DNA of 50,617 bases from an uncultured archaeon (GCA_903828655.1 CAIKMX010000023.1:1-50617), one strand, 5' to 3'. Shown: positions 1,467 to 50,537, counted from the first letter of the stretch. Notes: generated from the sequence alone by a model not told the origin. Translations and numbers: made by a program.

Positions 1467-1530
1467 GTTTGGTAATGTTCCAATCCGTTGACATACTTGT
1501 CCATTCAGTTTTAAGACCCGGCAACTTAAA
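1467..1530 (+). repeat. Repeat module D (GTTTGGTAATG..CAATCCGTTGACATACTTG..TTTTAAGAC..GGCAACTTAA)
   Basis: Core CAATCCGTTGACATACTTG is shared with 31590.., 32486.. and 49086... Confidence 0.8.
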
Positions 1531-8951: not shown

Positions 8952-11900
8952 TTACTTCTTCTCCTTTTTAACTTCAGCTTTTTTAACCTTAACAACAAGT
9001 TTTCCAGATTTATCTTTCTGATCTGCCAAAGGTCCAGTAACTTTTACTAACAATCCTGGCAATCCTGTTCCAACTGGAACGGGTTGATTTAATATTATAT
9101 TTTCTATAACACTCGCCAACTTATCTTTCTTACCTGTTCTTGTAGCATTTACAAAATGTTTAACTGGAGTCTCAAATGATGCTCTAGCCAAAACCGAACT
9201 CTTGTCAGATATAATCCCCATTCTTGTTATACCCTTAACAATTCCTGAAGTGGTCATTGTATCTGCAACAAGCATTAAATGTCTTATGTTAATATCAGAA
9301 CCTTGTGAAGAAATAACTTTCTTTATCTCTTCAATTATCGCCTGTCTTGCAGCCTCAACTCCTAAAACGGAAGAAATCTCATGTAAGTCATTTGTGAATA
9401 CCTTATCAGGATTAACTCCCTTGAAATTTAATATATCCTTTAAGTTTGAACCTGCAGTTAAAACAACATAATCTCTTTCTTTCTTAACAACTAAAACTTG
9501 AGAGATTCCTTTAACTCCCGATAAAATAACTTCCTTTATCTTTTCCTTTGTTTTGTATATCTCTTTGTAAGTTTCATTTGCAGAATCAACAGAAATTCCG
9601 TCGCTCTTCTTCTTCACATTGAATCCTTTGTCTTTCAAAACTTCAATAACCGTATCTAAATTGATATGAACTCTCTTCAAAGCCTCATCATCAATAGCAA
9701 TATTAATTCTTTTATTTGTAAAATCAATAGCAATTTCAGACATAATATTCTTCAACTTTACTTCCTTTATCTTTTCAGCAATAACTCTTGAGTCCTTTTC
9801 ATTGTTTGACTTACCTTCCAAATAAATCTCCATACTTGGAGTTGAAGGAGTCTTTCTAGCATCGAGAATTTCAATAATTCTTGGAAGACCTTGTGTAACC
9901 TGCATCTCAGCGACTCCTGCGGAGTGGAATACGTTCAGTACCATTTGTGTTGAAGATTCTCCAAATGATTGTGCAGTAACAACTCCAATTGCCTCTCCAG
10001 AAGCAATCTTCTGTCCCTTATGCTCATTTGTAACATCAACACCATCAACACCATAAACAAACTGGACAACATCATTTGAAGCGTCTCTTACAGTTCCATC
10101 ATAAGCAATAATCAGGTCCTGTAATGCATTAGCCAATCTTCTGTATAAATAACCTGATTTAGGTGTTCTCAAAGCAGTATCCATAAGTCCATCTCTTCCT
10201 GTTATCGCTCCAAAGAAAAATTCTTCAGGTCTCAATCCCTTCAAGAATGAATTATAGATAAATCCCTTAGATATTGGAGATAGATCGCCTTTCTTGAATG
10301 TAGATAATGTTCTTCCAGTATAACCAAAATCAATTCTTCTTCCATTAAGTACCTGCTGCCCTACGGAACAAGCAATCTGTGTAATATTCATCATACTTCC
10401 TCTAGATCCAGAACTAATCATCTTATTAACCGGATTATCTTTTGGAAATTCTTTCTTAACTGCCTCACCAATCTTTGTTCTAACTTCATTTAAAGATTGT
10501 AAAATTCTAATTTCTCTGGTCTCTTCCATTGTCTTTCCAGGAAGCTGCTCAAGTGTTCCGTCATAAAATTCTTCAATAAACTTTTGTGTTTTCTTTTCTG
10601 CCTCTTCTATAATAGTTTCTGTCATTTGTTTAACATGTTTAGGTACGTCTAAATCAGAAACTGAAATTGTAAATCCTGTTCTGGATAAGAAAGTTACACC
10701 AAGAGTATAAACTGTTTTTAAAACATCAATTGTAGTTCGTCTGTCATATTCTTTATCTATCTTCTTTATCATCTCTCCCTCTTCAACACCGAAAGTTTTT
10801 GCGCCTAAAGAAGCAAATTTCATTGACTGCATTTCTTTAGGTAACGCTTTAGCCCAAACATCCTTTCCAGAATTTTCCTTATTCAATGAAACATGCATAA
10901 CTCCAGCCTCATGTAAAAGTTGTATCGCATCTGCTTTGCTCAATTCGCTTTCACCAAGAACAAAATTTCCGGTAATAGCATCGTCGTTACATCCAACAAG
11001 ATTCATATTATTCTTAGGAGAAAAGATATTTTGTTCTACGTTCAATAAAACTTCAGCTTCAGCTCTTGCTTCTTCAGTTTGAGGTCCGTGAATATTCATT
11101 TCATCTCCATCAAAATCCGCGTTGTAAGGATTACAAACAGAAGGATGCATTCTAAATGTCCTATAAGGTAAAACTTTAACATAATGTGCCATTAATGATG
11201 CACGATGCAAGGAAGGATGTCTGTTGAACAAAACAATATCTCCATCAACAAGATGTCTCTCAACAATATACCCTGTGTCTATCTCTTCAGAAAGTTCACT
11301 TCTCAAATCAGCGGTAATTCTTTTTCTCTTCCCATCAGGTCTTATAATATAATTTGCAGCAGGATATTCTTCTTTCAAGATAATCTTTTTCAATCTTTCT
11401 TTATTTAACGTAGTAACCTTTTCAGCAACGGTAAGTATCTTTGCAATCTCAAATGGAATACCTACTTCATTTATCTTTAAGTTTGGATCTGGAGAAATAA
11501 CCGTTCTCGCAGAGAAATTAACTCTCTTACCGGCCAAATTCTTTCTTATTCTTCCTTCCTTACCCTTAATTCTTTCAGCGATAGTCTTTAATGGCTGTCC
11601 ACTTCTATGTCTTGCTGGAGGAATTCTAGCGATAGAGTTATCAAAGAAAGTTGTAACGTGATATTGCAATAAATCCCACAAGTCTTCAATAATAACTTCT
11701 GGTGCACCCGCATTCAAATTTTCCCATAATCTCTGATTCGCCCTAATAATATCAGACAACTTATGAGTTAAATCGTCCTCACTTCTCTCTCCTGTTTCAA
11801 GAGTAATACTAGGACGCACCGTTACTGGAGGAACAATAAGCAAAGTTAAAATTGCCCATTCCGGTCTTAAAGTTTTTCCATTAATTCCTAAAAGTTTCAA

Positions 11901-12422
11901 ATCATCATCAGAAACTTTAACAAGTCTCTCTCTTATTTCAGAAGGAAATAATCTTCTTCTTCCTATTCTAAATGTAGAAGGTTTTTCTAGTTTAACTTTT
12001 TCCTGAACAATACCACAGAAAGGACATTTCTTTATATCTCTTGATTTCTTTATTCTTGTCTTCAAATCTTTATCATAAAACTTTTGATCAAGTAAAATCT
12101 TCCCACAAGCTTCACAAGTTGAACGTAAAACTAAATCAATAATTGGTAAATATTTTATGTGTAAAGTAGGACGAGCCATCTCAATCATCCCCGGATGTCC
12201 GAGGCATTCTTTTAATCTTCCACCGCAAGTTCTACATCTTACCCCTGGATCGATAGCACCAAGTCTCAAATCCATCAAACCGCCGTCTACTGGATAACCA
12301 TCAACATCATATAATTCCGGCGTTACGATTTTAGCAACAGCCATCTTTTTGATTTGTTCTGGACTTGCAAGTACAAATCTCATTGCTTTCATCTGTTTTC
12401 TTATTGGTTTATTACTTGACAT
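8952..12422 (-). CDS. rpoA: DNA-directed RNA polymerase subunit A, unsplit (A-prime and A-double-prime regions in one 1156-aa ORF)
   Basis: N-terminal zinc motifs and NADFDGDEMN are present. The trigger-loop region GEAIGVVTAQSFGESSTQMVLNVFHSAGV, which normally lies near the start of A-double-prime, is in the same frame. Confidence 0.93.
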   Translation of the reverse strand: MSSNKPIRKQMKAMRFVLASPEQIKKMAVAKIVTPELYDVDGYPVDGGLMDLRLGAIDPGVRCRTCGGRLKECLGHPGMIEMARPTLHIKYLPIIDLVLRSTCEACGKILLDQKFYDKDLKTRIKKSRDIKKCPFCGIVQEKVKLEKPSTFRIGRRRLFPSEIRERLVKVSDDDLKLLGINGKTLRPEWAILTLLIVPPVTVRPSITLETGERSEDDLTHKLSDIIRANQRLWENLNAGAPEVIIEDLWDLLQYHVTTFFDNSIARIPPARHRSGQPLKTIAERIKGKEGRIRKNLAGKRVNFSARTVISPDPNLKINEVGIPFEIAKILTVAEKVTTLNKERLKKIILKEEYPAANYIIRPDGKRKRITADLRSELSEEIDTGYIVERHLVDGDIVLFNRHPSLHRASLMAHYVKVLPYRTFRMHPSVCNPYNADFDGDEMNIHGPQTEEARAEAEVLLNVEQNIFSPKNNMNLVGCNDDAITGNFVLGESELSKADAIQLLHEAGVMHVSLNKENSGKDVWAKALPKEMQSMKFASLGAKTFGVEEGEMIKKIDKEYDRRTTIDVLKTVYTLGVTFLSRTGFTISVSDLDVPKHVKQMTETIIEEAEKKTQKFIEEFYDGTLEQLPGKTMEETREIRILQSLNEVRTKIGEAVKKEFPKDNPVNKMISSGSRGSMMNITQIACSVGQQVLNGRRIDFGYTGRTLSTFKKGDLSPISKGFIYNSFLKGLRPEEFFFGAITGRDGLMDTALRTPKSGYLYRRLANALQDLIIAYDGTVRDASNDVVQFVYGVDGVDVTNEHKGQKIASGEAIGVVTAQSFGESSTQMVLNVFHSAGVAEMQVTQGLPRIIEILDARKTPSTPSMEIYLEGKSNNEKDSRVIAEKIKEVKLKNIMSEIAIDFTNKRINIAIDDEALKRVHINLDTVIEVLKDKGFNVKKKSDGISVDSANETYKEIYKTKEKIKEVILSGVKGISQVLVVKKERDYVVLTAGSNLKDILNFKGVNPDKVFTNDLHEISSVLGVEAARQAIIEEIKKVISSQGSDINIRHLMLVADTMTTSGIVKGITRMGIISDKSSVLARASFETPVKHFVNATRTGKKDKLASVIENIILNQPVPVGTGLPGLLVKVTGPLADQKDKSGKLVVKVKKAEVKKEKK

Positions 12423-31576: not shown

Positions 31577-31749
31577 TTAGGTAACAACACAATCCGTTAA
31601 CATACTTGGCAATATAATTTTAAAGACTTAGCAATTCAGCATATTAAGCATATCATATACAAATAAAACATTGCCAAGCCATCAAACCACAACACATTAC
31701 CTAATCGTCCGTAAAGCGAGGCATCTTGACAAAGTCAGATGCCGAGCAG
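31577..31749 (+). repeat. Composite repeat D - spacer - B - C
   Basis: TAGGTAACAACACAATCCGTTAACATACTTGGCAAT..TTTTAAAGACTTAGCAAT; AACATTGCCAAGCC..ACATTACC; AGCGAG-GCATCT-T-GAC-AAA-GTC-AGATGC-CGAGCAG. Confidence 0.8.
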
Positions 31750-39479: not shown

Positions 39480-39598
39480 CGCCCATGACAGGATTTGAAC
39501 CTGCGACCCCTGACTTTCTTTGTTCTACGAACGAAGAACGAGCGAACTCGCTTCGCACTTAGAAGGCCAGTGCTCTATCCAGGCTGAGCTACACGGGC
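39480..39598 (-). tRNA. tRNA-Arg (anticodon UCU) with a 44-nt intron at the canonical 37/38 position
   Basis: Minus-strand read: GCCCGTG-TA-GCTC-AGCCTGGATA-GAGC-A-CTGGC-CTTCTAA-[GTGCGAAGCGAGTTCGCTCGTTCTTCGTTCGTAGAACAAAGAAA]-GTCAG-GGGTC-GCAGG-TTCAAAT-CCTGT-CATGGGC-G. Confidence 0.85.
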
Positions 39599-41377: not shown

Positions 41378-41551
41378 CTCAATCCAATTGCTATACAGTT
41401 TTTAAACACATAACAAACTCAAAAGTATATGTTTCACTTAATCCGGAGAGTTACCAAAAGTTTAGTATCTACATTCCCTCTTGGAAAAGTTCAACATTAT
41501 TTTTAAGTAAAATATTTTTTTGGTTTAAAAAATTAAAAGTTACCACAATGT

Positions 41552-41622
41552 CAAGAACCCAAAACATTACCAAAAAAAGTTCCGTAAAGCGAAGCATTGT
41601 GACGAAGTCCAATGCGGAGCGA
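41552..41622 (+). repeat. Repeat modules B + C. C (41588..41622) ends 4 nt from the stop of 41626..42060.
   Basis: CAAGAACCCAAAACATTACCAAAAAAA, then AGCGAA-GCATTG-T-GAC-GAA-GTC-CAATGC-GGAGCGA. Confidence 0.85.
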
Positions 41623-41625
41623 CAA

Positions 41626-42060
41626 TTATTCTTTATCTCTTTGAGGTTTAGATTGAAAACGCACCGTCATAACAGAACCCGCCAAGAGATTTCTAGTCGG
41701 AGGAATTTCTCCAGCACGAATAGAATAATTTTGAAGCAGTGCCGCTGTTTTGTTTGGCCCGCGTTTTGTTCCAGAATGTTCCCTCAACCATTCAACCTTC
41801 CCAGGAACAGGTTCAAAATCCTCATCGCGAGGGATAGATAAACCCTGATGGTAAGGTCTCGAAGAATCATAAACAACGTCTCTAGAAGAATACCTGCACG
41901 GAAAAACAAGCCCTTCTGCCAAATGAGCAGTACAACACGTCACTACCTCCCCAACCTTATAATCTCTAAAAACACCACTCTTATCATCATTAACCGCATT
42001 CATCTGACATTTGCACCAAAAATCTCCTGAATCTATCTTTGTTTTTCCATCAACCATCAT
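41626..42060 (-). CDS. Hypothetical Cys-rich protein
   Basis: 144-aa ORF (WCKCQ, TCCTAH). No motif recognised. Confidence 0.4.
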   Translation of the reverse strand: MMVDGKTKIDSGDFWCKCQMNAVNDDKSGVFRDYKVGEVVTCCTAHLAEGLVFPCRYSSRDVVYDSSRPYHQGLSIPRDEDFEPVPGKVEWLREHSGTKRGPNKTAALLQNYSIRAGEIPPTRNLLAGSVMTVRFQSKPQRDKE

Positions 42061-42120
42061 TTCAGTATAAGATTAAAGATTATAAAGATTTAGATAACAA
42101 AGAATATAATAAACAACTCA

Positions 42121-42238
42121 CCAAGTATGCCAAAGAACCCCGGGTATTACCAAAAAGTTCCGTGAAGCGAGCATCGTGGCAAAGCCCGATGCGAGCGACA
42201 TTTAGTCTCTCCACTCTCCAAGATTTAAGCAACTTAGG
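42121..42238 (+). repeat. Composite repeat B - C (42166..42198) - D-like, with a further truncated B/C fragment at about 42290..42325
   Basis: CCAAAGAACCCCGGGTATTACCAAAAA; AGCGAG-CATCG-T-GGC-AAA-GCC-CGATG-CGAGCGA; ATTTAGTCTCTCC..AGATTTAAGCAACTTAGG. Confidence 0.8.
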
Positions 42239-42345
42239 TTTTATACATTTTAGGTTTTCGCACAAACAGAGTTCACACTAATATCATTAACACCAAGAAC
42301 CCGGTGCCGTAGCGAAAACCAAAACGACTAACGCTATTACTCTTA

Positions 42346-42713: not shown

Positions 42714-42800
42714 CGACTCCTCCACAAGAGATACCGAACAGTTTAGTAACAATCAAAGCGTTTACACACTTGGCAATTCAAATTTTAAGCATTGGCAGAT
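42714..42800 (+). repeat. Repeat modules E + D, ending about 12 nt from the stop of 42813..46235
   Basis: CGACTCCTCCACAAGAGATACCGAACA, then GTTTAGTAACAATCAAAGCGTTTACACACTTGGCAATTCAAATTTTAAGCATTGGCAG. Confidence 0.8.
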
Positions 42801-42812
42801 TAATCAAAATTA

Positions 42813-45800
42813 TCAATTAAATAACATCTTCGCTTTTCTCTGTATTTCCTGTTCAAGTGCAACCTTCTTAGCATCCAACTCAGCTTCCTTCTTCTTCATC
42901 TCAGTCTTAAGTTTATCCTTATACTCTTCTCTCAATTCCTCTTTAAGCTTAATCGCTCTCTCCCCCAACTCTCTTCTTATCTGCGCTTCCTTTTCAGCCT
43001 CAAGTTTTGCTCTCAAAGCAGTCTCTTTAAATCCTAACTCTTCAACTTTGTTATCAACTTCCTTTTTCTTTCTATCATAATCTTCCTTAAGTGAATTTTT
43101 CAAGAACAAATATGCCTCATTATGTTTCTGTTTCATCTTATCAAACTCTCCTTTTTCTTGAGCAACCGTTCCCTCTATCTCCTTTTCTTTTTCCTTCAAA
43201 ACCTTTTTTAATTTTTCTTGTTCTTCCAACATCTTTTGAACTCTTCTCTTTAGAAGCATTTCTTTAAAACCCAAACTCTTTTTCTTTTCCAAAATCTTCA
43301 TCATAGACATCCTCTCACGAGCGTCCTCTCTTCTTTCTCTCATCTTAACCGCCCGAATCATTTCCCTCTCCACGGCTTTTTTATGCGCCTGCTCTCTCAT
43401 CTTTCTAATCTCCGCACTCTTCATCATTGCCTGCTCCTTTTCAGCGAGCTTCTTTTTGAGATGCTCTTCTCCCTCAGCGAGCTTCTTTTTGAACGTTTTT
43501 TCTTCTTCAGCAATTTTTTTATTCAATGCTTCGTGTTCCTCCGCAGATTTTTTTCTAATTTCCTCTCTTCTCTTCTCAAGTTCATTAATCTTCTTTTGAA
43601 CCTCTTCATGCAATGCCTTTTTCCTGCCTAAAACAACCTTATCCATCTTATCCCCTTTCTTCCTTGCCTCTTCCTCTGCTTCTTTCTTTATATTTTGAGC
43701 TTCATCTATCTCCTTAGCAACTTTGCTATTGAGTTCTTTTTCTTTTTCTCTCAAATCAGTTTTTAACTTTTCTTGATCATCTAACATCTTCTTTACTTTC
43801 TTTTTAAGAAGATTTTCTTTAAGAATCAAATTTTTCTTTTGTTCTATGATTTTTCTCATAGAAGTCCTTTCATGAACCTCTTCATGTTTCTTCATCGCAA
43901 CAAAATCCCTCATCATCTCCTTTTCTCTTACCGAAAGATCTTTTCTAAGCCCCTCTTCTCTTTCTGCAAAACTCTCCCTCAAGGCTTCCTCTTTCTCTGC
44001 AAGACTCTTTCTAAACTCTCTTTCTTCCTCGGCCAACTTTATACTCAATGCTTCGTGTTCCTCCGCAGATTTTTTCCTTGCCTCCAATTTTTCTTTCTGA
44101 AGCTCTTCTACTTTTCTTTTAACCTGTTCTTCAAGTTCATTAATCCTATGAGAAATAACCTTCTGCGCTTCCCTTTCAGCTCCCGCCTTCACTCTTCTAG
44201 CATCTTCAATCTCAAGAGCCATCCTTCTCTCAAGTTCAATCTCTTTCTCTTTAGAAGCCCTTTTTAGTCTAGCCTGCTCCTCTAATATTTTTTTAACTCT
44301 TCTCTTTAGAAGCATTTCTTTCAGACCCAAATTTTTTTTCTTTTCCAAAATCTTCATCATAGACATCTTCTTAAGAATATGCTCTTTTTTCTTCTCTATT
44401 TCAAGAGCTTTCATCATTTTCTGTTCTTTTCTTGCAAGATCTTCTTTGGCTATTCTTTCTTCCTTAGAAAGTTTCTCCATAAATGCTTTTTCTTTTTCTT
44501 TAGAATCCTTTTCCTGGGATGAAAGACCCTTCTTCATCTCAATTTGTTTCTTTAAAAATTCGGCCCTTATCTTACTCTCTTCATTTGAAAGACCCTCTCT
44601 CATCTTCTTCTCTTCTTCAGATTTTTTCCTTTCAAGCTCTTTTTCTTCTTCCAAAAGTTTTTTCTTAAATTCTTTCTCCTCTACGGCAAGCTTTCTCTCA
44701 AGAATCTCATGCTCGGAAGCAAACTTTTTCTTTGCCTCTTCCTTCTCATTCTCTATACGAGCTTTTGTTTTCTTAATCCTTTCTTCAAGTTCTTTTTCCT
44801 TATGGGAAGAAATCTTCCTTGCCTCCTCCTCCGCCTGTTTCTTTATCCTCTCGGCTCTCTCTTTCACACTAACAATATGCATCTCAAGCTCTTTTTCTTT
44901 TTCCTTTAAAGCTTTCTTTAATTTTTTCTGCGCATCCTCACGTAGTTTAATAGAATCAGAATTTTTCCTAACTTCATTCTCTTTCTCCATAATCTTCTTT
45001 CTCAAGATTTCTTCTTTTTCAAACAACTCTCTTCTAAACCCTCTTTCTTCTTCAGCTAACTTCTTATTCAACGCGTTATGCTCCGCAGCAGATTTTTTTC
45101 TCACTTCCAATTTCTCCTTTTCAAGCTCAGAAAGCCTCTTTTGAATCTGTTCCTCGATTTCTCTTTTTTTCTGAAGAACTATCTCATTAAGTCTCTCATT
45201 TTTCTTTCTCGAGTTCTCTTCAGCTTCCCTTTTTACTTTATGAGCCTCCCGTATCTCCCTATCAACTTGCTCATTAAGTTGCTTCTCTCGATTATAATGA
45301 AGTTTATTTAATCTTGCAACTTCCAAGGCAATCTCCTTCTCAAATCTCTCATGTAACTCATTCTTATGCAACAAGGATTCTTCATCAAACTTCTGCCTTA
45401 ATTTCTTTCTTTCATCAGTCAATTCTTGGACCATTCTCTTTTTCAAAGCAACTTTTGCATCCTCAAACTCTTTTTCTGCACGATGTCTAAGAATTGTTGT
45501 CTCTTCCTTTGTAAGCTTAACCTTTTGATCTTTCAATGCTTTATCCAATAAACTCTTAAATCTCCTCTCAACATCTTTCTTCAAAGTAGTTTCAACTCTA
45601 TTTTCATAATCCTCATGATACTTCTGTTCTAATGCACGATATTTTTCATTAAAGATTTTTTCATTAGAGATTAAATCTTCATGCAACTGCTTCTGAATCA
45701 TAGACTCTTTATTTTTTATTTTATCAGATAATGCAATCTTTATGTCATTTAATGACATATCAAAAGCTTCATTAGTAAGCAAATTAACTGAAGGATCTAT

Positions 45801-46235
45801 TCTCTTAAGGATTTCCTTCTTTCTCTCCTCCTCCCCCTTATGAGCCTCTAATTCCCTATGAAGCTTATTTAATTCCGAATGCAACAAATCCATTTCCTTC
45901 TCATAAGCTTTATTTTTAACGCTAACATGTTTTTTATTCTCAATCTCTTCTTTTAATGCCCTTATTTTCTTATCTACTTCAAGTTTAACATTAACAGTTT
46001 TCCTATGTTTTGGTTTATATCTTCCAGAAATTTTAGCTTTTAGAATTTTAAGCTCTCTCTCAATAATAGGAATATCAGAAACACTCTTTAATCTCGAACG
46101 AATCACTGACGCCTCAGCTTCATGCCCTCTAACGTTCAGCCCATTCAACTCTACCTTTAATTCCTCAAGTCTCTGAACGCCCTTACTAAAGATTTCAAAG
46201 TCCTTCCTCAAACTAGATTCAGCAGTTTTCACCAT
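42813..46235 (-). CDS. 1140-aa Glu/Lys-rich coiled-coil protein with 3-4 long internal tandem repeats
   Basis: No TM segment or NTPase motif is seen. Repeated blocks include KKSAEEHEALNKK[LI]AEEE..F.K.L.E.EE (four copies) and MSMMKILEKKK.LG.KEMLLKRRV.K.LEEQ (three copies). Confidence 0.8.
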   Translation of the reverse strand: MVKTAESSLRKDFEIFSKGVQRLEELKVELNGLNVRGHEAEASVIRSRLKSVSDIPIIERELKILKAKISGRYKPKHRKTVNVKLEVDKKIRALKEEIENKKHVSVKNKAYEKEMDLLHSELNKLHRELEAHKGEEERKKEILKRIDPSVNLLTNEAFDMSLNDIKIALSDKIKNKESMIQKQLHEDLISNEKIFNEKYRALEQKYHEDYENRVETTLKKDVERRFKSLLDKALKDQKVKLTKEETTILRHRAEKEFEDAKVALKKRMVQELTDERKKLRQKFDEESLLHKNELHERFEKEIALEVARLNKLHYNREKQLNEQVDREIREAHKVKREAEENSRKKNERLNEIVLQKKREIEEQIQKRLSELEKEKLEVRKKSAAEHNALNKKLAEEERGFRRELFEKEEILRKKIMEKENEVRKNSDSIKLREDAQKKLKKALKEKEKELEMHIVSVKERAERIKKQAEEEARKISSHKEKELEERIKKTKARIENEKEEAKKKFASEHEILERKLAVEEKEFKKKLLEEEKELERKKSEEEKKMREGLSNEESKIRAEFLKKQIEMKKGLSSQEKDSKEKEKAFMEKLSKEERIAKEDLARKEQKMMKALEIEKKKEHILKKMSMMKILEKKKNLGLKEMLLKRRVKKILEEQARLKRASKEKEIELERRMALEIEDARRVKAGAEREAQKVISHRINELEEQVKRKVEELQKEKLEARKKSAEEHEALSIKLAEEEREFRKSLAEKEEALRESFAEREEGLRKDLSVREKEMMRDFVAMKKHEEVHERTSMRKIIEQKKNLILKENLLKKKVKKMLDDQEKLKTDLREKEKELNSKVAKEIDEAQNIKKEAEEEARKKGDKMDKVVLGRKKALHEEVQKKINELEKRREEIRKKSAEEHEALNKKIAEEEKTFKKKLAEGEEHLKKKLAEKEQAMMKSAEIRKMREQAHKKAVEREMIRAVKMRERREDARERMSMMKILEKKKSLGFKEMLLKRRVQKMLEEQEKLKKVLKEKEKEIEGTVAQEKGEFDKMKQKHNEAYLFLKNSLKEDYDRKKKEVDNKVEELGFKETALRAKLEAEKEAQIRRELGERAIKLKEELREEYKDKLKTEMKKKEAELDAKKVALEQEIQRKAKMLFN

Positions 46236-46290
46236 CTTTTATTTATCACTATTAACAAGTATTTTTATTTTATAAATCTTCTCAATATCC

Positions 46291-47520
46291 TCAATTCTTC
46301 AGCACACTAGTATCATATCCCTTTTTCTTCCACATATTAATCTGCCTTCTAATATCTCCTACATCAGGTATCTTTGTCTCTCCCTGCAAGACCGAAGTAT
46401 TATAACCCTCATTCTTCCATTTTTCAATTTGAGACTTCATTGTATCAACAGGCTTCTTCGCCTTCTTCATCTGTTTATATTTTTTGACTCTCTCAACATG
46501 AAGTTTTTTTATCGCCTTCACTCTTTCCTTCTTAACTTTAGCAAATATCTTCTTGCTTACCTTCTTCTCTTCAGGAGTTTTAAGCTTAACCTCTACAGTA
46601 TGTTCCTTCTCATGGATATAATCAACCTGCCTTCTCAATTCATTTCTATATTGATTCTTTAGTTCATCGAGTAACTTATCTCTTGAAAAAACCGAATAGA
46701 AAACAAATAATAACAGAACTAAAACCAAGGCTGCGAATATTAGCAAAACAAAAAAGTACATATTATCAAAAGCCCCCGCAAATAAAGGCTTCTTTTCAAC
46801 GCTAAAAAATGAACTAGATGTTCCAGTAGAATTATTATATCTTACAATGGCCCCAAATACATAATCCTGTTGCTTTGCACCTTTAGGGATCTCAAAAGAC
46901 TTTGTAAATGAAGTGTCTTTATCAACCGGAACAGTCTCTTTTTCAGAAAAGATTTTTCCACCATAAAAGTCTCTCACAAAATATTCAAACTCAACAACTG
47001 CCGAGCCTAAAAAAGTTAAATCATTTACTTTTATTTCAGCATTAACCCTCTCACCAGGCTGAACAACTCCCGAAGGAAATAAAGATACACTATTATCAAA
47101 TAAAACCTTATCAGACTCAATCTCTAAAATTATAGGAAGAGTTTTCTTTTCATCTCCAGATGAAACTTCTAAAACCCCCACATAAATTCCCTCACTAACA
47201 CTCAAATTAACAAAAGAAACCTTTATCGCCTTAGTTTCGTAGGCCGATAAAACAAGCTCTTGTGTTATCGGTTCAGTTAAGCCCTGAACGTCAGAAAGAA
47301 ACATATTCACCTTATTCTCAGAATCTTTCAAATTCGTCACTCTAACGTCAGTTTCATAACTGCCACCAATTTTTATGTTAGACTTTATCAAAATAGAATC
47401 AACATCAAAATTTGGAGAATTTTTTGGACTAAAGTAAGAATAACTCCCCCAACCCGCAAGACCTAAAAAAACTAAAACTAAAACAATAATAACAATTTTC
47501 TTAGTTTTACTAATTGCCAT
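46291..47520 (-). CDS. Bitopic membrane protein: N-terminal anchor, two beta-rich ectodomains, TM segment, Lys-rich cytoplasmic tail with a duplicated WK..GY.TSVL motif
   Basis: The ATG at 47520 overlaps the upstream stop (ATGA). TM segments are IVIIVLVLVFLGLAGW and MYFFVLLIFAALVLVLLLFVFYSVF. The ectodomain is paralogous to that of 47520..48854. Confidence 0.7.
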   Translation of the reverse strand: MAISKTKKIVIIVLVLVFLGLAGWGSYSYFSPKNSPNFDVDSILIKSNIKIGGSYETDVRVTNLKDSENKVNMFLSDVQGLTEPITQELVLSAYETKAIKVSFVNLSVSEGIYVGVLEVSSGDEKKTLPIILEIESDKVLFDNSVSLFPSGVVQPGERVNAEIKVNDLTFLGSAVVEFEYFVRDFYGGKIFSEKETVPVDKDTSFTKSFEIPKGAKQQDYVFGAIVRYNNSTGTSSSFFSVEKKPLFAGAFDNMYFFVLLIFAALVLVLLLFVFYSVFSRDKLLDELKNQYRNELRRQVDYIHEKEHTVEVKLKTPEEKKVSKKIFAKVKKERVKAIKKLHVERVKKYKQMKKAKKPVDTMKSQIEKWKNEGYNTSVLQGETKIPDVGDIRRQINMWKKKGYDTSVLKN

Positions 47521-48854
47521 CAAGCTCTCCTTAAAATAATTTTCTTCTTCTTTCCAATTCTAATAATAAAATAAACTATAAGTCCCATAACTACCACGCT
47601 AGCCACAATAAGACTTATTAATATAGTCTTAAAACTTATAGGGATATTCTCCGCTATCTCAAAATGAGAACTAGACGTGGCCACGCCATTAGGATAAACT
47701 AATTCCAAACCAAGAATATAGTTTCCTGTAGGCAAATCCTTAGTATAAAATTGTTTCTTAAAACTCTTCTGTTGATCTACCAAAACGGTCTCACTCTCCT
47801 TCAAATAAACCTTCCCATTATAGTCTTTTACAATGTAATTTAAGGTAACGTCAACTCGAGGATTATCTCCCATAGGGATAAGAGTAACTTGAGCATTTAC
47901 CTTACTATTCGGTTTTATCTGCTTGCTAGAGTCAGGAATAACAATCATCGCATCAAATAGTAACTTCTGTGATTTAACATTCACCGCAAGAAGAATTTCC
48001 TTTCCACCAATGTTCAACTTTCCAGTAAGAATCTCTGCTTTATCTCCCCCAGAAATGAATATCTTCAAGTCTTTACTCTCTCCAGGTTTCAAAACAAAAG
48101 ATTTATCCGCAAACACAACCTTCTCACCAAAATCCCCCGAAGAAGTTTCAATCTTTGCATCAGCAGTTCCAGTGTTTGTAACTCTTATAACTTTCTCCCT
48201 TATAGAACTAACAACCATATCAAGAGTTATCTCATTAGTATCAAGCTCCAAACCTGTTATAACAGGAATAACAACCGTGGGTGCGCCGCCACCGCCTCCG
48301 CCGCCACCGCCACCGGCACCGCCAACGACTTTACAGTCGGCAGAACAAGTTGCCGTAGTCTCGCCCCCATTACAAGTTCCATCACCGCAATAAGTTCCAC
48401 CACCACAAGTTCCACAATCTGTAACACAAGTTGAACAATTCTCCACCCCGTTACAACTACGGTCTCCACAATAAGTGTAATCAATAGAATACGAAAGCCC
48501 AGCATTATCAATAAACGTCGCATAAGTCAAATTCAACGCGCCATCATGGGTTACCGTAAACAAAGTCCCAGAACCACTTACTCCAGTTTTAGAAGAGTCA
48601 AGTTTAGATTCATAAACATAAAAGATAGTATTTTTTGTGTTGGTTCCAGAAGAAGTTGTTCCACCTAAAAAGGTTCCAAAGCTCGCGCTCGCACTCCCCG
48701 TATAATCAAATTGGACTTCATATGCATAAAGGTTTTCAGCTCCACTAACCGAAGTAACTCCCGCATCAGAAACGCTAACACTAGGACTTGCAGAAACAAA
48801 ACTAGCTAAAAATACTAATACAAAAACGCCAACAAACACCCTCTTTTCTAACAT
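47520..48854 (-). CDS. Secreted/anchored surface protein: signal peptide, cohesin-like domain, CGDxxCNG Cys-rich repeats, poly-Gly linker, two beta-sandwich domains, C-terminal TM anchor
   Basis: MLEKRVFVGVFVLVFLASFVSASPS; CGDRSCNGVENCSTCVTDCGTCGGGTYCGDGTCNGGETTATCSADC; GGAGGGGGGGGGGAP; C-terminal ILISLIVASVVVMGLIVYFII-RIGKKKK. The start is placed at ATG 48854 because the track start is TTG. Confidence 0.7.
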   Translation of the reverse strand: MLEKRVFVGVFVLVFLASFVSASPSVSVSDAGVTSVSGAENLYAYEVQFDYTGSASASFGTFLGGTTSSGTNTKNTIFYVYESKLDSSKTGVSGSGTLFTVTHDGALNLTYATFIDNAGLSYSIDYTYCGDRSCNGVENCSTCVTDCGTCGGGTYCGDGTCNGGETTATCSADCKVVGGAGGGGGGGGGGAPTVVIPVITGLELDTNEITLDMVVSSIREKVIRVTNTGTADAKIETSSGDFGEKVVFADKSFVLKPGESKDLKIFISGGDKAEILTGKLNIGGKEILLAVNVKSQKLLFDAMIVIPDSSKQIKPNSKVNAQVTLIPMGDNPRVDVTLNYIVKDYNGKVYLKESETVLVDQQKSFKKQFYTKDLPTGNYILGLELVYPNGVATSSSHFEIAENIPISFKTILISLIVASVVVMGLIVYFIIRIGKKKKIILRRA

Positions 48855-48913
48855 AAAAAACAAAGTAATTCAAACTATTTAAATCTTAACATCGAACAAT
48901 ACCGACGAGAAAA

Positions 48914-49115
48914 TCACTCTTTTCTTTTTAGAAAAAAGAAAATTGGTGTTTCAAAAGAAAAACTAAGATAGCAAAACAAAAAACATTGCCAAGCCACCAA
49001 AGAACCAGACATATTACCAAAAATTTAGGCAAGAGCGAGCATTGTGACGAATGTCCGATTTCGAGCGACAGTTTGGTATCCTCTCAATCCGTTGACATAC
49101 TTGGCAACTCAAATA
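48914..49115 (+). repeat. Composite repeat A (reverse orientation) - B - C (49034..49068) - D
   Basis: TCACTCTTTTCTTTTTAGAAAAAAGAAAATTGGTGTTTC; AACATTGCCAAGCCACCAAAGAACCAGACATATTACCAAAAA; AGCGAG-CATTG-T-GAC-GAAT-GTC-CGATT-T-CGAGCGA; GTTTGGTATCCTCTCAATCCGTTGACATACTTGGCAAC. Confidence 0.85.
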
Positions 49116-49183
49116 AATAATAAACCAAAAAGTTTAAATACACACCTTTACTTTAACTAACATAAATACTTGAAGGAGTCAAA

Positions 49184-49354
49184 ATGCCTAAAATCACAAT
49201 ATCTGTTCCAAATGAGTTATTAGCAAAATTTAAAGAAGAATTTCCTGAGATAAACGTAGCAGAAGTAGCCCGTAGAGTAATAAAAAAGAAGATTGAGGAA
49301 CTTAAAAAGCTTGAAGAACTAAGTCCCAAGGAAGAGTATAAATGGCATCAATAA
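49184..49354 (+). CDS. Ribbon-helix-helix antitoxin-like protein (56 aa, not in the ORF track)
   Basis: My own translation is MPKITISVPNELLAKFKEEFPEINVAEVARRVIKKKIEELKKLEELSPKEEYKWHQ*. GGAG lies 7 nt upstream. It overlaps the next ORF by 13 nt. Confidence 0.55.
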   Translation: MPKITISVPNELLAKFKEEFPEINVAEVARRVIKKKIEELKKLEELSPKEEYKWHQ

Positions 49355-49641
49355 CTTTCGCAATAGATGAAGAATTGAACAAAGAAATAAAAAAGTTTCT
49401 ATGGCTGAATCTATCCGCATTAGTTAAACAGGAGTTATTGAGAAGACATGAATTGCTTGAGAAATTAAAGAAACAGCTGAATTCAAAAGAAGAACAGGAC
49501 TTAGTCAGATGGTCTGTTGAACTTGGAAGAAGAGCAAAAAAAGGAAGATTCAAAAAACTACTATCTGAGCTTTCTCCTGAAAAAAGAGAAGAATTACTAA
49601 GATCTATATCTTCTGAAAAAAAAGAAAAATTATTAAACTAA
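49342..49641 (+). CDS. Second RHH-like antitoxin candidate (VapB-like)
   Basis: ITFAIDEELNKEIKKF strand-helix start followed by a charged helical tail. 99 aa, directly upstream of the PIN gene. Confidence 0.5.
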   Translation: MASITFAIDEELNKEIKKFLWLNLSALVKQELLRRHELLEKLKKQLNSKEEQDLVRWSVELGRRAKKGRFKKLLSELSPEKREELLRSISSEKKEKLLN

Positions 49642-49659
49642 TTCTTCCTAACGAGTAAA

Positions 49660-50076
49660 ATGAGGGTGATATTAGATAATAACATATTCTTTTCATTAAT
49701 GAACCCTAACTCGGTAGCTTCATATATATTCTCAATTATGGATGTTGACTTCTTTGCTCCCGAGTACATAAAACAGGAGTTAAAAGAGCATAGAGAAGAG
49801 TGCATGATTAAATCCAAACTCTCAGAGCATGAATTTGAGCTTAGGCAGACAGAGGTTGAAGAACTTATTAAGTTCATTAAATCTTCAGACTATGAAAATT
49901 TTCTTAAACAATCCGCAGACTTAATATCGGACATTGATGATATTGATTTTCTGGCATTGGCACTATCACTTAATGCTTCAATCTGGTCCAACGACCAGCA
50001 TCTTAGAGAACAATCATTAGTTGAGGTATACAAAACAGAAGATTTATTTAACATGATGTTGAATAAGGGATTATAA
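49660..50076 (+). CDS. PIN-domain (VapC-like) toxin
   Basis: MRVILDNNIFF (first acidic residue), E at about position 40, and DDIDFLALALSLNASIWSNDQH (distal acidic residues). 138 aa. Confidence 0.7.
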   Translation: MRVILDNNIFFSLMNPNSVASYIFSIMDVDFFAPEYIKQELKEHREECMIKSKLSEHEFELRQTEVEELIKFIKSSDYENFLKQSADLISDIDDIDFLALALSLNASIWSNDQHLREQSLVEVYKTEDLFNMMLNKGL

Positions 50077-50204
50077 GCTCTCTCCCAGAACTCTCTTCAC
50101 AACTTCAGTTCAAGCCCGCTTTGCTTTGTTCTTCCAGCCATCCTTCTCTTTCCAAGTACAGCAAGACCAATTCCGCCGATTAGAACAGATATGAAATAAG
50201 TATC

Positions 50205-50537
50205 TCAATTACTTCTTATCTTCTCAATTTCTCTTTTAAGATGAGGCAAATCCTTTTCCAATACATTCCAAACTCTTTCTAAATCCACACCAAAATAATG
50301 ATGCACTAGTTTGTCTCTAAATCCTGCAATAAGCCTCCATTCAACAGCCCCATATTTATTTTTAAAATCCTCAGAAAGATTTTTACTTGCCTCCCCTATA
50401 ACTTCCAGTTCTCTAATAATCGCGCTTTGTCTCATCTTGTCTCCTATAATCTCTTCTTTAGAGACTCCCTTCGAAAATTCTTCTATATTTTTTATAGAAT
50501 CCAAAATATGCCCTATGAATATCATATCGTCTTTCAT
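50205..50537 (-). CDS. HEPN (DUF86/HepT-like) toxin
   Basis: RDKLVHHY is the Rx4-6H HEPN motif. 110 aa. The ATG overlaps the stop of the upstream partial gene. Confidence 0.8.
   Translation of the reverse strand: MKDDMIFIGHILDSIKNIEEFSKGVSKEEIIGDKMRQSAIIRELEVIGEASKNLSEDFKNKYGAVEWRLIAGFRDKLVHHYFGVDLERVWNVLEKDLPHLKREIEKIRSN

What the first reader, a model, noticed from the sequence alone, without database searches (positions are those of the whole stretch)
42813..48863. Three-gene operon linking two paralogous surface/membrane proteins to a giant cytoplasmic coiled-coil protein
Minus-strand order:
1. A 444-aa exported protein: signal peptide, cohesin-like module, CGDxxCNG Cys-rich repeats, G13 linker, two beta-sandwich domains and a C-terminal TM anchor.
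2. A 409-aa bitopic paralog, with an ATGA start/stop overlap. It has two related beta-sandwich domains (compare LFDAMIVIP..VNAQV..YIVKDYNGK..ETVLVD..SF.K.F....TSSSHFEI with LFDNSVSLFP..VNAEI..YFVRDFYGG..ETVPVD..SFTKSF....TSSSFFSV), a TM segment and a 130-aa basic cytoplasmic tail.
3. After a 55-nt gap, a 1140-aa Glu/Lys coiled-coil protein without a TM segment or NTPase motifs.

The architecture suggests a trans-envelope assembly in which extracellular adhesin-like domains are coupled, through the basic tail, to an intracellular filament or scaffold. That would be relevant to host attachment or cell shape in a DPANN-type symbiont. I do not recognise it as a described system.
Basis: partly seen in the sequence, partly recalled or inferred. 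Interest (0 to 1): 0.65.

Follow-up and report, generated by a model that had tools for sequence, protein, structure and literature searches.

The report
Conserved archaeal adhesin-anchor-helical rod operon
A three-gene operon in a tiny symbiotic-type (DPANN) archaeon, widespread among its relatives, pairs a variable surface protein with a related membrane adaptor and a long helical cytoplasmic protein, so it may link the cell surface to an internal scaffold; no function has been tested.

Summary
The three minus-strand genes are real:
- P1: 47520-48854, 444 aa.
- P2: 46291-47520, 409 aa.
- P3: 42813-46235, 1140 aa.

P1 and P2 share a two-domain Ig-like module followed by a membrane helix (BLASTP E 2e-9).

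The order P1, P2, P3 is conserved in Pacearchaeota/Nanoarchaeota-type metagenomic loci. All 29 distinct P2 genes with enough downstream sequence are followed by a P3 gene. P3 is intact in relatives (270-896 aa), with a conserved head and tail and a variable repeat rod.

A C-terminal P2 motif (W-K-K-x-G-Y-D-T-S-V-L-E) tracks with P3. P2-like proteins without the motif lack P3, and some carry long Lys/Glu-rich helical tails on the same chain. One lineage fuses an adhesin head onto a P2 body.

None of the three proteins reaches a curated threshold in Pfam or NCBIfam, and PHROGs, PADLOC and PDB sequence searches gave no meaningful match.

- The P1/P2 junction is TGATG, not ATGA.
- "Cohesin-like" is unsupported.
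- The P3 rod has a hydrophobic period of 3.65-3.75 residues, not the heptad 3.5.
- P2 has two hydrophobic segments.

Best reading: a trans-membrane adhesin-adaptor-scaffold module. This rests on genomic context only; binding and function are untested.

The parts
48876..48883 (-). TATA-like box (TTTAAATA) about 25 nt upstream of the P1 ATG. This spacing fits a leaderless or near-leaderless archaeal transcript.
   Evidence: Read directly from the sequence. Function is inferred.
47520..48854 (-). P1: 444-aa exported, C-terminally membrane-anchored surface protein. An alternative TTG start lies at 48863.
48333..48470 (-). P1 Cys-rich region (aa 129-174) with two CGDxxCNG repeats and 10 Cys.
48285..48323 (-). 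P1 poly-Gly linker (GGA+G10, aa 178-190). A poly-Gly/Ser linker sits at the same place in relatives.
47523..48284 (-). P1 conserved anchor module (aa 191-444): two Ig-like beta-sandwiches, a membrane helix (aa 403-435) and a short basic end. It is the paralog of the P2 ectodomain.
   Evidence: Anchor HMM E 2e-94. BLASTP to P2 E 2e-9. Pfam HYDIN-type Ig domain below threshold at 22 bits.
46291..47520 (-). P2: 409-aa membrane adaptor. Its ATG overlaps the P1 stop (TGATG), and a GGAG lies 8-10 nt upstream.
47431..47496 (-). P2 N-terminal hydrophobic helix (aa 9-30). It is either a signal anchor or a signal peptide.
46798..47409 (-). P2 ectodomain (aa 38-241): two tandem Ig/FnIII-like beta-sandwiches.
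   Evidence: AlphaFold2 pLDDT about 85-93 in this part. Foldseek best match is RbmA at E 4e-12.
46690..46767 (-). P2 second membrane helix (aa 252-277). It continues into a long cytoplasmic helix.
46294..46689 (-). P2 basic cytoplasmic tail (aa 278-409, pI 10.0).
46384..46419 (-). P2 tail motif copy 1: WKNEGYNTSVLQ (aa 368-379).
46297..46332 (-). P2 tail motif copy 2: WKKKGYDTSVLK (aa 397-408).
46236..46290 (-). 55-nt P2-P3 spacer. It carries an AT-rich TATA-like stretch and AGTGAT about 10 nt before the P3 ATG.
   Evidence: Function is inferred.
42813..46235 (-). P3: 1140-aa cytoplasmic all-helical Lys/Glu-rich protein with a head-rod-tail layout.
45996..46235 (-). P3 conserved head (aa 1-80), predicted as three helices. 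It defines the P3 family.
45456..45995 (-). P3 conserved proximal helical region (aa 81-260).
43218..45338 (-). P3 variable rod (aa 300-1006), made of diverged repeats of about 175-180 aa.
   Evidence: Repeat unit aa 620-800 against 790-985 (45% identity, E 2e-24) and against 300-425 (E 6e-20).
42816..43088 (-). P3 conserved C-terminal region (aa 1050-1140), ending ...QRKAKMLFN.

Best explanation
**Proposal.** The operon encodes a trans-membrane surface-display and anchoring module of Pacearchaeota/Woesearchaeota-type DPANN archaea.

**P1** is the variable outward-facing protein.
- Its head is lineage-specific. It is small and Cys-rich here; in relatives it is a LamG-rich giant of up to 3544 aa or more.
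- A poly-Gly linker hangs the head on a conserved stalk of one or two Ig-like domains plus a membrane helix.

**P2** is a paralog of that stalk.
- I propose it pairs with the P1 stalk at the membrane.
- It carries into the cytoplasm a basic helix of about 100 residues, which ends in one or two W-K-K-x-G-Y-D-T-S-V-L-E motifs.

**P3** is cytoplasmic, with a conserved three-helix head, a repeat-built amphipathic helical rod of variable length, and a conserved tail.
- I propose its head docks on the P2 motif.
- I propose the rods self-associate under the membrane. This would cluster or mechanically anchor the surface protein, for example at a contact site with a host cell.

**Shown:** gene structure, paralogy, predicted topology and folds, strict synteny, co-occurrence of motif and P3, and natural fusions.

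**Inferred:** P1-P2 pairing, tail-head docking, rod self-assembly, and any role in attachment.
For: - **Synteny.** P1-like, P2 and P3 lie in the same order and on the same strand in relatives. All 29 distinct P2 genes with at least 400 nt downstream are followed by a gene with the P3 head. A P1-type anchor gene is upstream in about 24 of 26.
- **Translational coupling.** P1 and P2 overlap by 1 nt in the window and by 4 nt in five relatives.
- **Motif specificity.** Among all ORFs of 51 sources, the tail motif occurs only at the C-termini of P2 proteins.
- **Motif tracks with P3.** P2-like proteins without the motif (L035/L036/L039, L042/L044, L037/L038) have no P3 gene.
- **Fusions.**
  - L043 is a 1440-aa protein: adhesin head, Gly/Ser linker, two Ig domains, membrane helix and two motifs. 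A P3 of 876 aa follows it.
  - L037 894-7457 is a 2187-aa protein: membrane helix, two Ig domains, membrane helix, then about 1840 aa of Lys/Glu/Gln-rich helix.
  - L035 (578 aa), L039 (586 aa) and P0075 (1448 aa) are similar.
- **Structure predictions.** The P2 model has pLDDT 80.6, with two beta-sandwiches between two membrane helices and a long cytoplasmic helix. The P3 head and proximal rod are all helical at pLDDT 82.5.
- **P3 layout.** Head and tail are conserved and the rod varies from 270 to 1140 aa.
- **Abundance.** The P2 profile finds 1087 representatives at E<=1e-30 among 1.84 billion proteins. The best 150 are nearly all about 400 aa and most align over almost the whole profile.
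- **Location.** The window is chromosomal and housekeeping: EF1A, EF2, RNA polymerase A and B, RFC, RNR.
Against: - There is no direct evidence of any protein-protein contact.
- The Lys/Glu-rich tails of the fusion proteins are not detectably homologous to P3. They support the architecture, not orthology.
- P3 lacks heptad periodicity, so filament-type coiled-coil assembly is not assured.
- Both the P2 tail and P3 are basic (pI 10.0 and 9.5), so charge attraction does not explain docking.
- A few loci show no P1-type gene upstream (L017, L040).
- No expression or localisation data exist.
Confidence: 0.5

Rival explanations
1. It is a general envelope or S-layer system rather than an adhesin system. 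P1 would be the main surface-layer protein. P2 would be its membrane stalk partner, in the way SlaB serves SlaA. P3 would be a sub-membrane skeleton that sets cell shape or envelope stability, with no specific role in host contact.
For: - The module sits in a housekeeping chromosomal context.
- It is very widespread, apparently as one module per locus.
- P1 is only 444 aa in this genome.
- C-terminal membrane anchoring is usual for archaeal surface-layer proteins (general knowledge).
Against: - P1 heads are extremely variable in size and content (about 360 to more than 3500 aa, some LamG-rich). This is more typical of adhesins than of a lattice-forming protein.
- No lattice-forming domain was recognised.
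Confidence: 0.2
2. P3 is only co-transcribed and is not physically coupled. It would be an independent cytoplasmic helical protein, acting for example in division, chromosome organisation or stress protection. The P2 tail would have its own function.
For: - No contact has been demonstrated.
- The P2-P3 spacer (23-336 nt, and 1111 nt in L010) may hold its own promoter.
- P3 is basic.
Against: - P3 follows P2 in 29 of 29 cases, across P2 identities down to about 25-30%.
- P3 is absent exactly where the tail motif is absent.
- Membrane-anchored P2-like proteins carry comparable helical regions on the same chain.
Confidence: 0.12
3. The P2 tail, and perhaps P3, binds nucleic acid and so tethers the nucleoid or RNA to the envelope module. 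The G-Y-D motif would be a GapR-like DNA-binding element.
For: - Eight of 13 tails give sub-threshold matches to Pfam GapR_DNA-bd (best E 2.7e-4, 20.9 bits against a cut-off of 22.6).
- The profile gives a weak PDB match to a UPF0335/GapR-type protein (E 0.25).
- The tail and P3 are both basic.
Against: - The matches cover only about 20 of 72 profile positions and fall below the curated cut-off.
- Equally weak matches go to LPD34, BTRD1 and ribosomal S13/S15 N-terminal domains. This points to a generic short helix-turn motif.
- DPANN proteomes are Lys-rich in general (my own knowledge, not tested here).
Confidence: 0.08
4. The P3 ORF is a low-complexity artefact: a chance open frame in Lys/Glu-coding repeats, or an assembly artefact.
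For: - Composition is extreme at 51% charged residues.
- Long spurious ORFs lie on the opposite strand.
Against: - More than 30 relatives have an intact ORF with conserved head, proximal region and tail.
- The repeats are diverged (about 45% identity at protein level), and no long-period DNA tandem repeat was found.
- An independent assembly matches.
Confidence: 0.01

Closest known systems
Mycoplasma pneumoniae attachment (terminal) organelle: membrane adhesins such as P1 and P30 coupled to an internal core that includes the giant coiled-coil protein HMW2. This comparison is from my own knowledge and was not tested here.
   Same: - A reduced-genome, host-attached cell.
- Membrane adhesins paired with large cytoplasmic helical proteins.
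- It is the nearest example of how this module may work.
   Different: - Bacterial, with no sequence or family relationship detected.
- It has many more components, and its genes are not arranged as this three-gene operon.
- HMW2 is a heptad coiled coil, whereas the P3 rod has a period of 3.65-3.75.
SPEARE-type giant surface proteins of Nanohaloarchaeota (PMC10266531)
   Same: DPANN surface proteins with tandem Ig-like ectodomains, a membrane helix, and a cytoplasmic part that ends in a coiled coil.
   Different: - A single polypeptide of about 9000 aa with a cytoplasmic VirB4/TraG-like ATPase.
- The module here has no ATPase and is split into three genes.
Coiled-coil proteins (CCPs) in type IV pilus loci of cluster 2 DPANN (Hamm et al. 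2024, PMC11291902)
   Same: - Conserved coiled-coil proteins of unknown function, reported in the Pacearchaeota, Woesearchaeota and Nanoarchaeota lineages.
- In L001/L002, the module lies about 4 kb from a pilus ATPase and platform genes.
   Different: - CCPs are defined by adjacency to pilus genes. Here a pilus ATPase lies within the flanks in only two distinct loci (L001/L002 and L031) and not in the window.
Bacterial intermediate-filament-like, coiled-coil-rich proteins (crescentin, FilP, Scy). This comparison is from my own knowledge.
   Same: A head-rod-tail layout with conserved ends and a long helical rod, and membrane-proximal scaffolding as the proposed role.
   Different: - No homology.
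- P3 does not show heptad periodicity.
- Filament formation is untested.
Vibrio cholerae RbmA, and ASH/HYDIN-type Ig domains
   Same: Best structural matches of the P2 ectodomain are tandem FnIII/Ig-like beta-sandwiches (Foldseek E 4e-12).
   Different: - The similarity is a generic fold at 15% identity.
- RbmA is a secreted biofilm matrix protein with no membrane helices or cytoplasmic tail.
Sulfolobales S-layer pair SlaA/SlaB. This comparison is from my own knowledge.
   Same: A large outer surface protein paired with a smaller membrane-anchored partner that has beta-sandwich domains and a helical stalk.
   Different: - No sequence match.
- Here both partners are membrane-anchored paralogs.
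- A dedicated cytoplasmic protein is part of the operon.

Membership tests
   The P1 head (aa 26-180) gives 0 Pfam families even at E<=10. Whole P1 matches only a sub-threshold Ig-like domain.
Tandem Ig/FnIII-like beta-sandwich ectodomain | Two beta-sandwich folds with significant structural matches. | tested here: met
   The AlphaFold2 model has strands through aa 38-241. Foldseek against the PDB gave 980 matches at E<=0.001, the best being RbmA at 4e-12. Pfam HYDIN/VesB Ig scored 20-22 bits against a cut-off of 25.5.
Canonical left-handed (heptad) coiled coil | Hydrophobic periodicity of 3.5 residues, with a/d positions occupied. | tested here: not met
   - In the window P3, windowed spectral power peaks at 3.6-3.67 and exceeds all shuffles.
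- Power at 3.5 (0.278) stays below the shuffle maximum (0.311).
- a/d occupancy is 0.46 against 0.42 in shuffles.
- All 21 P3 homologs peak at 3.65-3.80.
SMC/Rad50-type coiled-coil ATPases | Walker A/B ATPase head domains flanking the coiled coil. | tested here: not met
   P3 has no Walker A motif and no Pfam or NCBIfam match.
GapR-like DNA-binding domain (PF10073), for the P2 tail motif | Score at or above the Pfam gathering threshold over the domain. | tested here: not met
   The best score is 20.9 bits against a cut-off of 22.6, and only about 20 of 72 profile positions align.
DPANN CCP / type IV pilus loci (Hamm et al. 2024) | The coiled-coil gene is adjacent to pilus ATPase and platform genes. 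| tested here: not met
   A pilus ATPase homolog lies within the flanks only in L001/L002 and L031, and there is none in the window.
DPANN CCP / type IV pilus loci (Hamm et al. 2024) | Sequence homology to the published CCP profiles. | not testable with these tools
   The CCP sequences and profiles are not in the held text or supplements.
SPEARE giant proteins | A cytoplasmic VirB4/TraG-like ATPase domain on the same chain as the Ig-rich ectodomain. | tested here: not met
   None of P1, P2 or P3 has an ATPase family match.
Intermediate-filament-like / coiled-coil-rich scaffold proteins | Conserved head and tail flanking a variable helical rod. | tested here: met
   The head, proximal region and C-terminal region are conserved. 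Complete lengths run from 270 to 1140 aa.
Intermediate-filament-like / coiled-coil-rich scaffold proteins | Self-assembly into filaments or lattices. | not testable with these tools
   This needs purified protein and electron microscopy.
Phage or defence-system protein families | Match to PHROGs or PADLOC models. | tested here: not met
   All three proteins give 0 families.

The most novel reading that the evidence does not exclude
This would be an archaeal adhesin-to-cytoskeleton linkage built from unrelated parts, a prokaryotic counterpart of integrin-talin or LINC-type coupling and of the Mycoplasma attachment organelle. Hypervariable giant adhesins would be plugged, through a paralogous Ig-stalk adaptor and a short C-terminal docking motif, into a non-heptad helical sub-membrane scaffold. 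That scaffold would organise the host-contact site of Pacearchaeota/Woesearchaeota-type DPANN cells.
Probability: 0.3. Interest if true: 0.85.

Novelty: new variant of a known kind. Interest (0 to 1): 0.62.

Why it matters
**What is unknown.**
- Almost nothing is known about how uncultivated Pacearchaeota/Woesearchaeota-type DPANN archaea hold on to other cells or organise their envelope.
- Their giant variable surface proteins are usually discussed alone.

**What this module adds.**
- It gives those proteins a conserved stalk, a dedicated membrane adaptor and a dedicated cytoplasmic partner.
- It is common: more than 1000 sequence clusters of the adaptor at E<=1e-30.

**What becomes testable.**
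- A short docking motif and a small head domain can be tested for binding.
- A rod protein can be tested for self-assembly.
- The three-gene marker can be used to find and compare adhesin cassettes in metagenomes.

**If the coupling is real.** It would be a new, convergent solution to linking the cell surface to an internal scaffold in a minimal cell.

The novelty rating is tentative. The protein families are new, but the proposed kind of system has analogues.

Tried and rejected
- **Locus search with the 17-sequence P2 alignment.** It failed for lack of a conserved stretch. A 7-sequence subset worked.
- **Word-indexed protein searches with the P3 head.** They returned only 5 and 16 hits, mostly fragments, so they say little about distribution.
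- **Structure prediction of paired P2 tail-linker-P3 head fusions.** The tool turned it away. Tail-head docking therefore has no structural support.
- **Profile-profile comparison of the tail motif with the P3 head.** It aligned the G-Y motifs as I had guessed by eye, but weakly (E 0.013, probability 3%). I treat this as inconclusive.
- **The cytoplasmic part of the L037 fusion against P3.** No detectable homology.
- **P3 head and proximal rod against the PDB.** Foldseek's best E was 2.5. Sequence searches were not significant.
- **Pfam scans of 27 P3 heads.** No consistent family.
- **Type IV pilus linkage.** Rejected as a general feature.
- **Rfam over the operon.** Nothing relevant.
- **The repeated intergenic element as a structured RNA.** Its fold energies are no better than shuffles (z about -0.3 to -0.4), and it is absent from all related loci.
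- **Alignment A7.** It contained three sequences in which I had filled linker residues by hand. I discarded it and used A8, which holds only sequences printed.


Full report
**1. Observation**

The minus strand carries three consecutive ORFs:
- P1: 47520..48863, with the ATG at 48854 giving 444 aa.
- P2: 46291..47523, with the ATG at 47520 giving 409 aa.
- P3: 42813..46235, 1140 aa.

An independent ENA assembly has the identical P1 (444 aa) and P2 (409 aa), followed by the start of P3.

The P1 stop and the P2 ATG overlap as TGATG, with GGAG 8-10 nt upstream. This is a 1-nt overlap, or TTGA if the TTG start is used. It is not ATGA. Five relatives have a 4-nt overlap.

A TTTAAATA box lies about 25 nt upstream of the P1 ATG. 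The P2-P3 gap is 55 nt.

The window is archaeal and chromosomal:
- It has an intron-containing tRNA and an Sm-like gene.
- It encodes EF1A, EF2, RNA polymerase A and B, RFC and RNR.
- Related loci come from Nanoarchaeota and Pacearchaeota MAGs.

**2. The proteins**

*P1*
- A signal-peptide-like N-terminus.
- A head of about 100 aa with no family match.
- Two CGDxxCNG repeats with 10 Cys.
- A GGA+G10 linker.
- A conserved module of two beta-sandwiches plus a membrane helix (aa 403-435) and a short basic end.

*P2*
- An N-terminal hydrophobic helix.
- Two beta-sandwiches at aa 38-241.
- A second membrane helix running into a long cytoplasmic helix (aa 248-353).
- Two short helical W-K-K-x-G-Y-D-T-S-V-L-E motifs at the C-terminus.
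- The AlphaFold2 model has pLDDT 80.6.
- The 132-aa tail has pI 10.0.
- Foldseek finds only generic tandem Ig/FnIII folds: RbmA at E 4e-12, ASH/HYDIN, and transglutaminase and macroglobulin domains.

*P1 and P2 are paralogs.* BLASTP gives E 2e-9. The P1-anchor HMM hits P2 at 3e-41.

*P3*
- No hydrophobic segment and no Walker A motif.
- 20% Lys and 20% Glu, only 3 Pro, pI 9.5.
- Its first 260 residues are predicted all helical at pLDDT 82.5, with a three-helix head at aa 4-70.
- The rod is built from diverged repeats of about 175-180 aa. No DNA-level long tandem repeat was found.
- The hydrophobic periodicity is 3.65-3.75 residues in the window protein and in all 21 homologs tested. It is not 3.5.
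- The rod is therefore an amphipathic helix of hendecad or pentadecad type. That points to a right-handed or unsupercoiled bundle, or to a surface-binding helix, rather than a classical heptad coiled coil.

*Database searches.* No protein reaches a curated threshold in Pfam or NCBIfam. PHROGs and PADLOC gave nothing. PDB sequence searches gave no meaningful match.

**3. Conservation**

A P2 search found 18 homologs. Context look-ups and collection scans gave 50 loci. I called ORFs in all of them and searched with the window proteins and with HMMs.

- All 29 distinct P2 genes with at least 400 nt of downstream sequence are followed, on the same strand, by a gene with the conserved P3 head. The spacer is usually 23-336 nt and is 1111 nt in L010.
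- A P1-type anchor gene lies upstream in about 24 of 26.
- P1 heads range from about 360 aa to more than 3500 aa and are often LamG-rich. Yet they share the Gly-rich linker and the anchor module.
- Complete P3 proteins are 270-1140 aa, and the window's is the longest. The head, the proximal region and a C-terminal region of about 70-90 aa are conserved.
- A full HMMER scan of 1.84 billion representative proteins with the P2 profile gave 4083 hits at E<=1e-3 and 1087 at E<=1e-30. The best 150 are nearly all about 400 aa, and most align over almost the whole profile.
- The only names found are "hypothetical protein" from archaeon or Pacearchaeota MAGs.

**4. Evidence for coupling**

- The tail motif occurs only at P2 C-termini among all ORFs of all loci.
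- P2-like proteins that lack the motif have no P3 gene (L035/L036/L039, L042/L044, L037/L038).
- Several of those carry a long Lys/Glu-rich helical region on the same chain:
  - L037 894-7457 is 2187 aa: membrane helix, two Ig domains, membrane helix, then about 1840 aa with 21% Lys and 21% Glu.
  - L035 and L039 are 578-586 aa.
  - P0075 is a 1448-aa tandem version.
- In L043, an adhesin head, a Gly/Ser linker, two Ig domains, one membrane helix and two tail motifs form a single 1440-aa protein. A P3 of 876 aa follows it.

These fusions support the architecture ectodomain, membrane, cytoplasmic helical rod. They also support P1 and P2 acting together.

The limits are as follows:
- The fused helical regions are not detectably homologous to P3.
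- The tail motif resembles part of the P3 head only weakly (E 0.013, probability 3%).

**5. Mechanism and rivals**

The best-supported model, at about 0.5, has three parts:
- P1 displays a variable head on a conserved stalk.
- P2, its stalk paralog, pairs with it and carries the docking motif into the cytoplasm.
- The P3 head docks there, and P3 rods form a sub-membrane scaffold that anchors or clusters the surface protein.

The rivals are:
- A general S-layer or envelope skeleton (0.2).
- P3 merely co-transcribed (0.12).
- A nucleic-acid tether (0.08). This is suggested by sub-threshold GapR-like matches of the motif, best 20.9 bits against a cut-off of 22.6.
- An artefact (0.01).

**6. Comparison with known systems**

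- By function, the nearest analogue is the Mycoplasma attachment organelle (my own knowledge).
- Among DPANN archaea, the nearest are the SPEARE giant proteins (PMC10266531) and the coiled-coil proteins next to type IV pilus genes (PMC11291902).
- The module has no ATPase.
- A pilus ATPase is nearby in only two distinct loci.
- Homology to the published coiled-coil proteins could not be tested.
- I found no paper describing this three-gene module.

**7. Verdict**

- The protein families are new. The proposed kind of system has analogues, so I rate it a new variant of a known kind.
- Interest is 0.62.

Noticed in passing
window 1486-1503, 31595-31612, 42759-42776, 49090-49107 (all minus strand): - A core of about 50 nt (TTAAAAnTGAATTGCCAAGTATGTCAACGGATTG...GTTACCAAACTGTC) occurs four times, against 0.02 expected by chance.
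- Two copies flank the operon: one is about 236 nt upstream of the P1 ATG and the other is just after the P3 stop.
- It gives no Rfam match, folds no better than shuffled sequence, and is absent from all 50 related loci.
- Its nature is unexplained. It could be a small RNA gene, a regulatory site or a genome-specific repeat.
   Followed up: partly
window 39480-39598 (-): A 119-nt tRNA match in Rfam (50.9 bits) that ARAGORN did not report. It is probably an intron-containing archaeal tRNA.
   Followed up: no
window 8952-12422 (-): A single 1156-aa ORF covers RNA polymerase Rpb1 domains 1 to 5. The largest subunit therefore appears unsplit, whereas archaea usually encode it as separate A' and A'' genes (my own knowledge).
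   Followed up: no
window about 41380-42345: About 1 kb holds only overlapping, unconvincing ORFs on both strands. Rfam gave no match at E<=1 from 41300 onward. It may be an unrecognised non-coding RNA or a degraded gene.
   Followed up: no
window 49174-50537: Small genes diverge from the operon:
- A short ORF that looks RHH-type; an independent assembly annotates it PF26688 RHH_12.
- A 99-aa ORF.
- A 138-aa ORF that looks PIN-like.
- A 110-aa ORF on the other strand that looks HEPN/DUF86-like.

The last two calls are by eye. This is probably a toxin-antitoxin cluster.
   Followed up: no
L037 894-7457 (also L038): The 2187-aa fusion protein contains four copies of a helical hairpin motif of about 50 aa (for example CNFLFEDIRDSISKNKVYKAEKKYDKLRRVYVSLPEDIRSSVYKKV) spaced along its Lys/Glu-rich region. 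The next gene, on the opposite strand, looks like Orc1/Cdc6 by eye.
   Followed up: no
L003, L006, L031 and JGI contig GkCTvv0N, downstream of P3: An ERCC4-type nuclease gene and a DEAD/Hef-like helicase gene recur a few kb downstream of the module in four loci. This is probably conserved local gene order rather than part of the module.
   Followed up: partly
L010 3076-4186; L050 1531-2543: L010 has a 1.1-kb insertion between P2 and P3. In L050, P3 is split into two adjacent ORFs (170 aa and 161 aa), which suggests a frameshift or an assembly error.
   Followed up: no
L001 13853-20662: About 1.5-4 kb downstream of the module there is a run of small ORFs (candidate pilins), then a T2SSE-type ATPase and two T2SSF platform genes. 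This is a type IV pilus-like locus of the kind discussed by Hamm et al. 2024.
   Followed up: partly
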